Positions 17,219 to 21,638 of a stretch of 64,000 nucleotides of DNA are shown piece by piece. The stretch spans positions 219,359-283,358 of the forward strand of contig CBDBCV010000015.1 in NCBI GenBank assembly GCA_965203455.1, written 5' to 3'. This DNA comes from Alphaproteobacteria bacterium (GTDB lineage Bacteria > Pseudomonadota > Alphaproteobacteria > MPNO01). The first letter of the stretch is position 1, and each line of letters opens with the position of its first letter. A program made the translations under genes and the position numbers. The notes beneath the pieces are model-generated. The model saw only the letters and a program-made list of their open reading frames with translations. It was not told the origin of the DNA and made no database searches.

Positions 17219-17335
17219 GGGCGGGGGGCGCCGCCCCGCCCCCATCGCGTCATGCCCGGACTCGTTCCGGGCCAACGCTCCCGGCGGACGAGGTAGGAAG
17301 GGTCAGCTGGGCGGGATTCGGACCGATTCCCGCGA

Positions 17336-17608
17336 TCACTCCTTGAACAGTTCCGAGTGAGACCCTGTACGCACTAACCGCAATTCATCGCCTTCGACGC
17401 GGTAGATCAGAAGCCAATCGGGTTCGATGTGAATTTCGCGATGGCCCCGTCAATTTCCCCGCAGCGGGTGATCGCGATAGCGGGTGGGCAGCGCAGCTTG
17501 TCGGATCAATGCGGTTAGCGTCGAGCCGAGCTTGGCCAGATCCTTGCCCCGCCGTTGCGCTCTTCTCACATCCCTCTTGAACTGCGCCGACCGGATCGGG
17601 GTCAGCAC
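17336..17608 (-). pseudogene. yafQ: YafQ-like (RelE superfamily) toxin gene with a premature in-frame TGA at the conserved Trp codon (17450..17452)
   Basis: Minus-strand translation VLTPIRSAQFKRDVRRAQRRGKDLAKLGSTLTALIRQAALPTRYRDHPLRGN*RGHREIHIEPDWLLIYRVEGDELRLVRTGSHSELFKE aligns along its whole length with YafQ (...YKDHPLQGSWKGYRDAHVEPDWILIYK...RTGTHAALFG). TGG is replaced by TGA. Starts 2 nt after the dinJ stop codon. Confidence 0.65.
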
Positions 17609-17609
17609 G

Positions 17610-17867
17610 TCAGATGCCGAGGTCTTCGAACAGCTCCTCGGCGGTGGCGAAGCGCTTGCCCTTGCCCTCGTCGAGCTCCTTCATCGCTTTGAGGGTAATG
17701 GCGTTCGGTACCTGCACGGCAAACGGCAGGCGCTTTTCGTCTGCCACCCGCAGCAACATCAGCCTGATCGCGTCGGAAACCGTCAGACCCATGTCGTGAA
17801 GTGCTTCGGTGGCGCGCGCCTTAGTATCGCTGTCGATCCGTGCGCGTACGACCGTATCGGCGTTCAT
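17610..17867 (-). CDS. dinJ: DinJ/RelB-family antitoxin
   Basis: MNADTVVRARIDSDTKARATEALHDMGLTVSDAIRLMLLRVADEKRLPFAV is the typical DinJ N-terminal RHH domain. Confidence 0.75.
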   Translation of the reverse strand: MNADTVVRARIDSDTKARATEALHDMGLTVSDAIRLMLLRVADEKRLPFAVQVPNAITLKAMKELDEGKGKRFATAEELFEDLGI

Positions 17868-17950
17868 TCGCGTCGCTCCCTGAATGTAGCTTCGATGTAG
17901 CTACGATCATCGTCTAATGCAAGAGCCGCCGGACTGAACTCCGGTAATCC

Positions 17951-19674: not shown

Positions 19675-21638
19675 GGAGAAATGTGCGCTGTGGTGATTTT
19701 TGGCTGTCGCCGGTTCGATTTTGGCGGTTGAATATCGTCCGGCCCGCTTCCCCACCGGGCAGGATACGGGCTTCCGGGGCCTGACAAATACGATTACCGG
19801 AAGATTGTCTGGCGTGCGGGCGTGGCTTCCCCTCTGCCGTCGGGCGGCGGGATCGGGCAGGATTGTCGGGAGGCAGACGAGCGGTCAGCCGGTGTCGAGA
19901 TACGGCACGGCGCCGACCAGGGAGCGCATGCGCTCGGGGCGGCCGGCGCGGGCCTGGGCGAGAGCCATCGCCATCATCACCGCCAGGGCGAGGCCGAGGC
20001 GGGTCTTCATCTTGGCGCGGCCTCGGATGTAGTGGGTCTCGAAGTTGAAGCTGTTGTCGAGGCGGCTGTTGATCCGCTCCATGGCCGAGCGGCGGTTGTA
20101 GCCGCGCCGCCATGACGGACTGCCCCAGGGCGTGGGGGTGAAGATGCGCCGGTCGTGGCTGTCGAGGTCGATGCGCAGGATGCGGCCATAGTCTCCGGGC
20201 TTGACCCCGCCGGCCCGGTGGCAGGCCCGGCTGCCGGCGCAGGCGAAGCCGAAGGCGGCTGCCGGGCAGCGGTATTTGAGCGTGCCGCAGCGGCCCCGAT
20301 CAGCCTCGAACCCCTGAAACGCCATAGCGCGGACCTCGCCGGTCCCGGGACAGACGCAGGACACCCGGCCGCGCTCGTCGTGAACGATGACATCGGCGCG
20401 GTCGGGGAACAGCGGCCGCGTGATCGGCTGCGCCGGATCGTATCTCGGCTCCTGCTTCTCCACCCGCCACATCAGCCGTGTATCGATCAGCGGGCGGGCG
20501 GTCCACCGGTCCCACAGCCGCGCCTTCAGGCGGGCATCGTCGAGACCGCGGTCGGCGCTGAAGTCGGCGCAGCGCCCGGCGATCTCCGGCGCCCTTGCGA
20601 ACAGCTCCTCCAGCATCCCGGACAGCACCTTGGGTTCCGAGGCCGAAGCGCGCGTCACCTCGAAGGCCACCGGAACCTCGTAATCGGTGTCGGCGATCAG
20701 GTGCAGCCCGTAGCCGAACCACGACTTCACCTTCTTCCACACCGCGCCGGTCCTGGCGTCCACCCCGCCCGTCTCGTGCTTGCCCCAGTCGGCGTCGGGG
20801 TCCGAGGTCTTGTCCTCGTCCTTGCCGACCCGGCCCGTCGAGTGGCTCGCGATCGCCTTGCCGTCGTAGCCGAGATGACGCCCGAAGTCCGGCAACGCGG
20901 CGAACAGCGCGGCGCGCAGGCTCTCGATCATGGCGGACACCAGCCCCTGCTCGTCCTCAAGCTGCACAACACGCCCCAGAAACCGCGAGAAGTTCCAGTG
21001 GCTCGGCGCCGTCGAACGAACCCGCGCCGGGCGCGTTACCGCATGCCCGTCGTGAAGCACCGTCACCGGCCCGCTCTGATACGGCAGAGGGTCGAACCCG
21101 CAGATCTCCAGCAACGCCGGGTTGCGCCCCAGCTCCCGCAACAGCGACTGCATCGAGGCGTGTTGCAACACCACCCCCGCGATCAGCGCCCGCCACATCG
21201 CCCGCACCGGGTAGTCGTTACGGCCCCGACCGCGACACACTTCAAGCGCCGTCACGATCTCCTCGTCGGGAAGCACCGCCAGAACCAGGCGCAGCCGTTC
21301 AAGGTCCGGCAGGACTTCGACATCGCGCCACGAAAAGGGTAGCTTCGCCGCCGTCGCCATCGCTGTTCTCCCGACCAGGGGTGGTGGTGGAACAAGGGCC
21401 CCAGGGCCCGATGGCGACACCTTCTATCTCATGCGCACGATCAGGGCGCGCGAGGCCGCCGCAGGAAAACCTCGCTGCCAAGACGCCGCGACCAGCGGCG
21501 TGGGGTGAAAATCGCCAAAACGACCGCCGCAGCGAAACTGAAACCCCGGATATCAACGACCACCACGGGGTATCAAAAATCTCGCACCTCCGTGAACGCC
21601 TTGTAAATCAACCCGTCCCCGACAGCGCAAACGCCTCA
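19675..21638 (-). mobile_element. IS1182/IS5-superfamily insertion sequence, copy 1 (1964 bp), inserted in the pckA-chvI intergenic region
   Basis: Bounded by the same ends as the identical copy at 47695..49657: inside-out TGAGGCGTTTGCGCTGTCGGGGACGG ... CACAGCGCACATTTCTC, with imperfect IRs GAGnnnTnTGCGCTGT. The flanks diverge exactly at these points in the two copies. Confidence 0.75.
19885..21360 (-). CDS. IS1182/IS5-type DDE transposase
   Basis: 491 aa from MATAAKLPFSWRD...; DDE_Tnp_1-type C-terminus (NRRSAMERINSRLDNSFNFETHYIRG). Identical protein at 47973..49448(+). Confidence 0.85.
   Translation of the reverse strand: MATAAKLPFSWRDVEVLPDLERLRLVLAVLPDEEIVTALEVCRGRGRNDYPVRAMWRALIAGVVLQHASMQSLLRELGRNPALLEICGFDPLPYQSGPVTVLHDGHAVTRPARVRSTAPSHWNFSRFLGRVVQLEDEQGLVSAMIESLRAALFAALPDFGRHLGYDGKAIASHSTGRVGKDEDKTSDPDADWGKHETGGVDARTGAVWKKVKSWFGYGLHLIADTDYEVPVAFEVTRASASEPKVLSGMLEELFARAPEIAGRCADFSADRGLDDARLKARLWDRWTARPLIDTRLMWRVEKQEPRYDPAQPITRPLFPDRADVIVHDERGRVSCVCPGTGEVRAMAFQGFEADRGRCGTLKYRCPAAAFGFACAGSRACHRAGGVKPGDYGRILRIDLDSHDRRIFTPTPWGSPSWRRGYNRRSAMERINSRLDNSFNFETHYIRGRAKMKTRLGLALAVMMAMALAQARAGRPERMRSLVGAVPYLDTG

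What the first reader, a model, noticed from the sequence alone, without database searches (positions are those of the whole stretch)
17336..17867. dinJ-yafQ module in which the toxin is silenced by a TGG to TGA change at the conserved tryptophan
The antitoxin dinJ (17610..17867, -) is intact. The adjacent yafQ-like frame (17336..17608) aligns along its whole length with YafQ toxins, but has a single in-frame opal codon (17450..17452) exactly where the conserved Trp sits (...DHPLRGN*RGHREIHIEPDW...). This is a neat example of toxin inactivation by one point mutation while the antitoxin and operon structure are kept. Alternatively it could be a programmed read-through site (UGA with Trp misincorporation).
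Basis: seen in the sequence. Interest (0 to 1): 0.5.

Follow-up and report, generated by a model that had tools for sequence, protein, structure and literature searches.

The report
Toxin gene killed by one stop codon
This is an ordinary chromosomal dinJ-yafQ toxin-antitoxin pair whose toxin gene carries one recent TGG-to-TGA stop mutation while the antitoxin stays intact, which is the usual first step in the decay of such modules.

Summary
dinJ (17610..17867, -) is intact. The yafQ frame (17336..17608, -) matches the YafQ family end to end but has an in-frame TGA at 17450..17452, which is codon 53.

All 20 syntenic orthologous loci I fetched (pckA-dinJ-yafQ, 75-97% nucleotide identity) have TGG there and an uninterrupted 90-codon toxin. 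Trp is present in 120 of the 120 best homologues. The change is therefore a private G-to-A transition at base 17450.

The stop lies upstream of four of the five residues that the E. coli YafQ mechanism assigns roles to, so the 52-residue product should be inactive. The promoter, the invariant GTAGCTAC palindrome, the ribosome-binding site and the TGA-C-GTG gene junction are all kept.

Programmed read-through is not supported. The stop is not conserved, no RNA structure flanks it, and UGA ends neighbouring genes normally.

Such lesions are common. Among 80 metagenomic loci retrieved through the antitoxin alone, 15 have a broken or missing toxin. The adjacent brnTA module is present in this window only as a 27-nt relic.

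The finding is real but ordinary. I could not exclude a base-call error or a minority variant.

The parts
17610..17867 (-). dinJ: intact RelB/DinJ-family antitoxin gene, 85 aa, ATG to TGA
   Evidence: It has no internal stop. It matches PF04221 (E 1.2e-23) and TIGR02384 (80.7 bits against a cut-off of 45.65). It is 92-99% identical to 15 database DinJ proteins. dN/dS across the clade is 0.06-0.17.
17336..17608 (-). yafQ pseudogene: a 90-codon YafQ-family toxin frame interrupted at codon 53, with a GTG start one base after the dinJ stop
   Evidence: Sequence and translation are. The repaired protein matches PF15738 (E 5e-34) full length and TIGR00053 at 89.3 bits. It matches E. coli YafQ structures at E 2.4e-24. 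It is 97% identical to the intact orthologue P0001.
17450..17452 (-). Premature opal codon (TGA) replacing Trp53. The mutated base is 17450, which is A on the coding strand and T on the + strand; orthologues have G and C there.
   Evidence: The three-way DNA alignment shows TGA against TGG. The codon count is TGG in 20 of 20 orthologous loci and TGA only in the window. The context is AAU UGA CGG.
17450..17608 (-). Remaining open frame: 52 aa covering the N-terminal part of YafQ, predicted to be catalytically dead
   Evidence: The ORF is listed. It keeps only His47 (E. coli His50). It lacks the equivalents of His63, Asp67, His87 and Phe91 (here His60, Asp64, His84, Phe88). The residue mapping comes and the residue roles from PMC4652777.
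17894..17922 (-). Putative dinJ-yafQ promoter: TTGCAT (17922..17917), a 17-nt spacer, then TACATC (17899..17894)
   Evidence: Read from the sequence. The TTG start of the first hexamer and the spacing are conserved in all orthologues. The second hexamer is TACAAT or TACATT in 17 loci and TACATC in the window, L001 and L171. The strict consensus scan did not report a promoter here, so function is inferred.
17885..17904 (-). Putative DinJ operator: the palindrome GTAGCTAC (17904..17897) overlapping the second promoter hexamer, plus the half-site GCTACA (17890..17885)
   Evidence: GTAGCTAC is invariant, 36-38 nt upstream of the ATG, in all 19 orthologous loci that include this region. The surrounding intergenic sequence has diverged. 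Binding by DinJ is inferred, not tested.
17876..17880 (-). Shine-Dalgarno-like GGGAG, 8 nt upstream of the dinJ ATG
   Evidence: Read from the sequence. It is conserved in the orthologues.
17264..17290 (-). 27-nt relic of a neighbouring brnA antitoxin gene (it encodes ...FRANAPGG...). It shows that a second toxin-antitoxin module at this spot has already been eroded.
   Evidence: It matches the inside of brnA at 100% in L002 and L170 (27 nt) and in L175 and L176 (24 nt). brnT and brnA are both present in L175 and L176. Only brnA is present in L001, L171, L002 and L170.

Best explanation
The locus is a chromosomal, vertically inherited type II toxin-antitoxin operon of the DinJ-YafQ family. DinJ is a RelB-type ribbon-helix-helix antitoxin and auto-repressor. 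YafQ is a RelE-superfamily ribosome-dependent mRNA endonuclease. The operon sits just downstream of pckA in a Defluviicoccus-like alphaproteobacterial lineage.

In this genome alone, a single G-to-A transition at base 17450 changed Trp53 (TGG) to an opal stop. Translation now ends after 52 residues. That is before the equivalents of E. coli His63, Asp67, His87 and Phe91, so the product cannot form the RNase active site. The toxin is a pseudogene.

The antitoxin, its promoter and operator, and the coupled gene junction are untouched. This fits the order in which such modules decay. A toxin knock-out costs nothing, whereas losing the antitoxin first would be lethal. The antitoxin gene is expected to decay later.

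The lesion is young. No other disabling change and no private substitution lies 3' of the stop.

Shown here: the sequence, family membership, orthologue comparison, conservation of regulatory elements and the absence of recoding signals. Inferred: loss of toxicity, DinJ binding to the palindrome, and that the base call is correct.
For: - The sequence and frame are as described, and family membership passes curated cut-offs.
- Twenty syntenic orthologous loci (pckA-dinJ-yafQ...RidA-Rieske) from at least 14 different samples all have TGG and an open 90-codon frame.
- Trp is present in 120 of the 120 best homologues.
- Both genes are under strong purifying selection across the clade, with dN/dS 0.07-0.12 at dS about 1. 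The intact state is therefore ancestral and maintained.
- The window's private changes relative to its four closest relatives are 5 in dinJ and 3 in yafQ (one synonymous, T39A, W53*). None lies 3' of the stop.
- Catalytic residue roles come from PMC4652777 and are mapped through the alignment.
- In an antitoxin-anchored sample of 80 metagenomic loci, 62 have an intact toxin, 8 have internal stops, 2 are partial and 5 have no toxin. The stops include three independent single-nonsense cases, L107/L110, L152 and L160/L161.
- The neighbouring brnTA module shows the full decay series: a complete pair in L175/L176, an orphan antitoxin in L001/L171/L002/L170, and a 27-nt relic in the window.
Against: - The TGA allele is seen only once. 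The window's exact DinJ sequence occurs on a single contig in the protein collection, and no second assembly of the same strain was found. A consensus error or a minority variant in a metagenome-assembled genome therefore cannot be excluded.
- Zero private substitutions in the 111 nt after the stop is uninformative. About 1.7 would be expected at the operon's private-change density.
- Loss of toxicity is inferred, not measured.
- Near-cognate decoding of UGA by Trp-tRNA would regenerate the wild-type protein at a low level.
Confidence: 0.8

Rival explanations
1. The TGA is not the organism's true or dominant sequence. It would then be a base-call or consensus error, or a low-frequency variant captured in a metagenome-assembled contig, and the toxin would really be intact (TGG).
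For: The allele is a singleton: 20 of 20 orthologues have TGG. The window's exact DinJ sequence occurs on a single 534,553-bp contig, and no independent copy was found. There is no secondary decay after the stop.
Against: The neighbouring conserved genes in the window (pckA 536 aa, Rieske oxygenase 373 aa, RidA 131 aa, dinJ 85 aa) are all uninterrupted and match the orthologue lengths. The dinJ-yafQ region aligns to L001 and L002 without any indel. There is thus no sign of an error-prone assembly. A G-to-A substitution is not a typical systematic assembly error. Single-nonsense yafQ alleles are demonstrably common in nature.
Confidence: 0.13
2. The UGA is leaky or programmed. Trp-tRNA decodes it at some frequency and regenerates authentic YafQ, so the mutation lowers toxin dosage rather than abolishing it.
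For: UGA is read by Trp-tRNA in competition with RF2 at about 2-4% in an E. coli K-12 reporter (PMC10570021). Here the inserted residue would be the wild-type one. From my own recollection of Poole et al. 1995 (not checked here), UGA followed by C is a weak termination context in E. coli. The downstream frame is still perfect.
Against: The stop is absent from all 20 orthologues, so nothing indicates selection for it. The UGA-C context follows automatically from the ancestral TGG-C. No stable RNA structure flanks the site (z = +0.88; 155 of 200 shuffles fold at least as well). UGA ends dinJ, yafQ, the Rieske gene, chvI and the transposase gene normally. No suppressor tRNA lies in the window. 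A toxin at a few per cent would be swamped by the upstream, fully translated antitoxin.
Confidence: 0.05
3. RNA-level recoding of the stop restores a sense codon. This would be either selenocysteine insertion at UGA, or TadA-type A-to-I editing of UGA to UGI, which is read as Trp.
For: TadA editing regulates another toxin, hokB, in E. coli. [quoted passage not shown] The site here is GACG, one base off.
Against: All native editing sites lie in TACG within a tRNA-Arg-like loop. Here the A follows G, and in the predicted fold it lies in a weak stem, not a loop. There is no SECIS-like hairpin downstream. The same downstream sequence accompanies TGG in every orthologue.
Confidence: 0.01

Closest known systems
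Escherichia coli DinJ-YafQ type II toxin-antitoxin system (PDB 4ML0, 4Q2U, 4ML2)
   Same: The gene order is the same: the antitoxin comes first and the toxin follows immediately. The toxin matches E. coli YafQ over residues 7-88 (E 2.4e-24). The equivalents of His50, His63, Asp67, His87 and Phe91 are all encoded. The antitoxin belongs to the RelB/DinJ family. A palindromic site overlaps the promoter.
   Different: The toxin frame is interrupted at the codon equivalent to E. coli Trp56, so four of those five residues are not translated. The operator sequence (GTAGCTAC) and the host (a high-GC alphaproteobacterium, 68.8% GC) differ. I did not search for a LexA box.
Eroded chromosomal toxin-antitoxin modules, as in the Photorhabdus study (PMC13617665)
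   Same: The toxin is disabled and the antitoxin intact. The module lies in a small spot that gains and loses toxin-antitoxin genes. [quoted passage not shown] The neighbouring brnTA module shows the later steps.
   Different: In that study most defective toxins showed large truncations, and only two cases showed point mutations. Here the lesion is a single base change in an otherwise perfect frame, so this locus is at the earliest visible stage.
Other single-nonsense yafQ alleles next to intact dinJ in metagenomes (L107/L110, L152, L160/L161)
   Same: They belong to the same family and have the same architecture, with one stop codon in an otherwise alignable toxin frame downstream of a full-length antitoxin.
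   Different: Their stops fall at other codons (Gln9, Gln37). They are not orthologous in genomic position to the window's locus.

Membership tests
YafQ toxin family (Pfam PF15738, NCBIfam TIGR00053; RelE/ParE superfamily) | Sequence match over the whole domain above the curated cut-off | tested here: met
   With codon 53 read as Trp: PF15738 scores 116.9 bits against a cut-off of 30, over profile positions 5-88 of 88. TIGR00053 scores 89.3 against 87.25. TIGR02385 scores 91.9 against 27.9.
YafQ toxin family (Pfam PF15738, NCBIfam TIGR00053; RelE/ParE superfamily) | Catalytic residues equivalent to E. coli His50, His63, Asp67, His87 and Phe91 | tested here: met
   His47, His60, Asp64, His84 and Phe88 are encoded in the frame and are 115-120 of 120 conserved in homologues. 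All except His47 lie after the stop.
YafQ toxin family (Pfam PF15738, NCBIfam TIGR00053; RelE/ParE superfamily) | Uninterrupted open reading frame of about 90 codons, giving a functional gene | tested here: not met
   There is an in-frame TGA at codon 53. The 120 best homologues are 88-111 aa. The locus is therefore a pseudogene of the family, not a functional member.
YafQ toxin family (Pfam PF15738, NCBIfam TIGR00053; RelE/ParE superfamily) | Ribosome-dependent mRNA cleavage and growth arrest that the cognate antitoxin neutralises | not testable with these tools
   This needs kill-rescue and cleavage assays.
RelB/DinJ antitoxin family (Pfam PF04221, NCBIfam TIGR02384) | Sequence match above the cut-off, an intact ORF, and a position directly upstream of the toxin | tested here: met
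   PF04221 scores 83.3 bits against 22.4, and TIGR02384 scores 80.7 against 45.65. The gene encodes 85 aa with no stop. Its stop codon lies one base before the toxin start.
RelB/DinJ antitoxin family (Pfam PF04221, NCBIfam TIGR02384) | Auto-repression through a palindromic operator in its own promoter | tested here: inconclusive
   An invariant GTAGCTAC palindrome overlaps the putative second promoter hexamer in all 19 orthologous loci that include this region. Binding was not tested.
Programmed stop-codon read-through | The stop codon is conserved among orthologues while the downstream frame is kept under selection | tested here: not met
   None of the 20 orthologous loci has a stop at this codon; all have TGG.
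Programmed stop-codon read-through | A stimulatory RNA structure or special context at the stop | tested here: not met
   The 91-nt fold around the site has z = +0.88 against shuffles. The UGA-C context is inherited from the ancestral TGG-C.
UGA reassigned to Trp (genetic codes 4 and 25) | UGA is not used as a terminator in the genome | tested here: not met
   dinJ, yafQ, the Rieske oxygenase gene, chvI and the transposase gene all end in TGA. dinJ, yafQ and the Rieske gene do so at the same lengths as their orthologues. GC content is 68.8%.
Selenoprotein (UGA read as Sec) | A SECIS hairpin immediately 3' of the UGA | tested here: not met
   There is no stable hairpin downstream. The same downstream sequence follows TGG in the orthologues.
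TadA-dependent A-to-I mRNA editing site | The edited A lies in a TACG motif within a tRNA-Arg-like hairpin loop | tested here: not met
   The site is GACG, and the A is not in a predicted loop. The motif definition comes from PMC5630033.

The most novel reading that the evidence does not exclude
The opal codon is decoded as Trp at a physiologically meaningful rate, either by near-cognate Trp-tRNA or by A-to-I editing of UGA to UGI. The lineage would then have turned a constitutive toxin into a low-dose toxin whose level depends on translational fidelity or on stress, rather than having lost it.
Probability: 0.04. Interest if true: 0.6.

Novelty: already known. Interest (0 to 1): 0.12.

Why it matters
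It matters little beyond annotation. The gene should be labelled a yafQ pseudogene and dinJ an orphan antitoxin in the making.

The locus does give a clean, datable snapshot of the first step of toxin-antitoxin erosion. It has one transition, no secondary damage and 20 intact orthologues for comparison. It also sits next to a second module (brnTA) that shows the later steps in sister genomes. That could serve as a small teaching example, or as a data point for studies of toxin-antitoxin turnover in symbiont-like alphaproteobacteria.

Tried and rejected
- **Genome scan with the repaired toxin.** The window's own species was not found, so the organism could not be named. The closest named relatives are 'Defluviicoccus sp.' and 'Rhodospirillales bacterium' MAGs.
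- **Exact look-ups of the window's DinJ and PckA for encoding contigs.** Nothing was on record, although both proteins are in the collection on one 534,553-bp contig. The truncated 52-aa product is not in the collection.
- **DNA pattern covering both alleles in JGI metagenomes.** There were no matches.
- **Strict sigma-70 promoter and terminator scan.** It found nothing. The promoter proposal rests on conservation instead.
- **Genes apparently missing in L170 and L174.** These loci seemed to lack a toxin gene, which briefly suggested more pseudogenes among close relatives. tblastn showed both frames are intact and were simply not called.
- **Relaxed selection on the toxin in the closest trio.** Toxin dN/dS is 0.36-0.57 against 0.09-0.17 for the antitoxin. 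The counts are too small (3-9 changes) to conclude anything.
- **Selenocysteine, code reassignment and TadA editing.** All were considered and rejected.
- **Ends of the nearby insertion sequence.** They could not be defined from inverted repeats.
- **Structure prediction.** I did not run it, because sequence-level membership is unambiguous.

Full report
**1. The observation**

- dinJ runs 17610..17867, from ATG to TGA, and encodes 85 aa with no interruption.
- One base after its stop, a GTG opens a 90-codon frame (17336..17608). That frame contains a single in-frame TGA at 17450..17452 (codon 53): ...YRDHPLRGN*RGHREIHIEPDWLLIY...
- The ORF list shows only a 52-aa open frame there.

**2. Family membership**

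- With codon 53 read as Trp, the protein matches Pfam YafQ_toxin PF15738 over positions 5-88 of the 88-position profile (E 5e-34, 116.9 bits).
- It passes the narrow NCBIfam YafQ model TIGR00053 (89.3 bits against a cut-off of 87.25) and the RelE/StbE model TIGR02385.
- It matches the solved E. coli YafQ structures at E 2.4e-24.
- The upstream protein matches RelB PF04221 (E 1.2e-23) and TIGR02384 RelB_DinJ.
- The name dinJ-yafQ is therefore justified.

**3. The lost residue**

- In the alignment to E. coli YafQ the stop falls on Trp56.
- The column is Trp in 120 of the 120 best database homologues. All of these are 88-111 aa long, so none ends at this point.
- In 93 more distant homologous matches in the fetched genomic loci the column is W 79, Y 9, L 4, F 1.
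- The proposed YafQ mechanism uses His50 or His63 as general base, His87 as general acid, Asp67 to tune His87, and Phe91 to stack on the mRNA (PMC4652777).
- Through the alignment these residues are His47, His60, Asp64, His84 and Phe88 here. Only His47 precedes the stop.
- I infer that the 52-residue product cannot be an active RNase.

**4. Orthologues**

- The closest intact toxins (P0001 at 97%, P0002 at 91%) lie in the same genomic position as in the window. That position is downstream of pckA, with RidA and a Rieske oxygenase beyond, and chvI/chvG on the other side of pckA.
- Further toxin hits gave syntenic loci at about 75-79% toxin nucleotide identity. One of them is in a Defluviicoccus sp. 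MAG (GCA_028821395.1).
- Strains sharing a broken toxin would be invisible to a toxin search. I therefore also searched with the antitoxin. This gave 15 DinJ proteins at 92-99% identity, and I fetched 12 more loci from them.
- Two of those loci (L170, L174) had no toxin gene called. tblastn shows both frames are open and complete.
- Codon 53 is TGG in 20 of 20 orthologous loci and TGA only in the window.
- The change is a G-to-A transition on the coding strand at base 17450 (C to T on the + strand).

**5. Selection and age**

- Across the clade, at dS of roughly 0.8-1.5, dN/dS is 0.07-0.12 for the toxin and 0.06-0.12 for the antitoxin. Both genes have been maintained by selection, and the intact toxin is the ancestral state.
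- Relative to its four closest relatives, the window has five private substitutions in dinJ and three in yafQ: a synonymous Arg12 change, T39A and W53*. None lies in the 111 nt after the stop.
- This fits a very recent lesion. The absence of later changes has little statistical weight, because about 1.7 would be expected.

**6. Operon structure**

- The gene junction ATC-TGA-C-GTG is identical in the window, L001 and L002, and the same spacing holds in all 20 loci.
- Upstream of dinJ, TTGCAT (17922..17917), a 17-nt spacer and a second hexamer (17899..17894) are conserved in position.
- The 8-bp palindrome GTAGCTAC (17904..17897) overlaps that hexamer. It is invariant in every locus that includes this region, while the surrounding spacer has diverged. 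A GCTACA half-site follows it.
- I read this as the promoter with a DinJ operator. This is an inference.
- The window, L001 and L171 share TACATC where the others have TACAAT or TACATT. The promoter may already have been weaker in this sub-lineage before the nonsense mutation.

**7. Read-through and other recoding**

- Programmed recoding predicts a conserved stop. The stop here is private.
- The 91 nt around it fold no better than shuffled sequence (z = +0.88). This also argues against a SECIS element.
- UGA ends dinJ, yafQ, the Rieske gene, chvI and a transposase gene, and the first three match orthologue lengths. GC content is 68.8%. UGA is therefore a normal terminator in this genome.
- No tRNA gene lies in the window.
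- A-to-I editing by TadA would turn UGA into a Trp codon. Native sites lie in TACG inside a tRNA-like loop (PMC5630033). Here the motif is GACG and the A is not in a predicted loop.
- What remains is basal misreading of UGA by Trp-tRNA, measured at about 2-4% in an E. coli K-12 reporter (PMC10570021). That would regenerate authentic YafQ at a low level.
- The fully translated antitoxin would be expected to neutralise such a small amount. I give a functional role for this about 4-5%.

**8. How ordinary it is**

- I retrieved 80 metagenomic loci through the antitoxin alone, so the sample is unbiased with respect to toxin state.
- Of these, 62 have an intact toxin, 8 have internal stops, 2 are partial or frameshifted, 5 have no toxin despite room for one, and 3 are cut by contig ends.
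- After removing duplicates there are three independent cases of a single nonsense codon in an otherwise good frame: L107/L110 (Gln9), L152 (Gln37) and L160/L161 (Gln9).
- The toxin-anchored genome sample also contains one interrupted copy (L041) and one fragment (L025).
- A recent study of chromosomal toxin-antitoxin systems reports frequent pseudogenisation, with toxin inactivation preceding antitoxin loss (PMC13617665).

**9. The neighbourhood**

- The stretch between pckA and RidA varies in gene content among relatives. Depending on the genome it holds brnT-brnA, orphan brnA, higB plus an HTH antitoxin, a NOV_C protein or a TonB-dependent receptor.
- brnT and brnA are both present in L175 and L176. 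Only brnA remains in L001, L171, L002 and L170.
- The window keeps just 27 nt of brnA (17264..17290, encoding FRANAPGG).
- The later steps of decay can therefore be seen beside the dinJ-yafQ module, which is at step one.

**10. Caveat and verdict**

- The allele is a singleton. The window's exact DinJ sequence occurs on one 534,553-bp contig in the protein collection, and I found no independent assembly of the same strain.
- The flanking conserved genes are all open and of orthologue length, and the region aligns to relatives without indels. The assembly does not look error-prone. Even so, a consensus error or minority variant cannot be excluded without the reads.
The read-through alternative is not supported. 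The phenomenon is already known and common, so interest is low.

Noticed in passing
window 19676..21637 (ORF 19885..21420, minus strand): About 2 kb lying between pckA and chvI is absent from the orthologous loci L002 and L088. It encodes a 511-aa protein with a DDE transposase domain (PF01609, PF05598), so it is probably an insertion sequence. Its ends could not be defined from inverted repeats.
   Followed up: partly
window 17264..17290; L175:3201-3780, L001:1588-1887: A 27-nt relic of a brnA antitoxin gene lies between yafQ and RidA. Relatives carry either the complete brnT-brnA pair or an orphan brnA at this spot, which gives a full decay series for a second toxin-antitoxin module.
   Followed up: yes
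L002:4742-4999: In the sister-species locus L002 the antitoxin, not the toxin, carries a premature stop (GAA to TAA, five codons before the normal end, giving 80 aa). Its toxin is open but has several non-conservative changes (G21A, L34S, P41T, R54G). This may be a different route of decay.
   Followed up: partly
window 17894..17899; L001, L171: The putative second promoter hexamer is TACATC in the window, L001 and L171, but TACAAT or TACATT in the other 17 orthologous loci. The dinJ-yafQ promoter may have been weakened in this sub-lineage before the toxin was hit.
   Followed up: partly
L170:2760-3032 and L174:2760-3032: The public gene calls omit the yafQ gene in these two loci, although the 90-codon frame is intact. 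In L170 an over-extended brnA call overlaps it. Counting called genes would wrongly suggest toxin loss.
   Followed up: yes
L090-L169 (JGI metagenome loci): Fifteen of the 80 loci fetched through the antitoxin have a toxin that is interrupted, partial or absent. These include identical Gln9-stop alleles on different contigs (L107/L110 and L160/L161).
   Followed up: partly
window 17219..17250: A GC-rich inverted repeat (GGGGCGGGGCGGCGCCCCCCGCCCC) lies just after the RidA stop, between the convergent RidA and yafQ genes. It may act as a terminator for both directions, but it lacks a T tract and the terminator scan did not report it.
   Followed up: no
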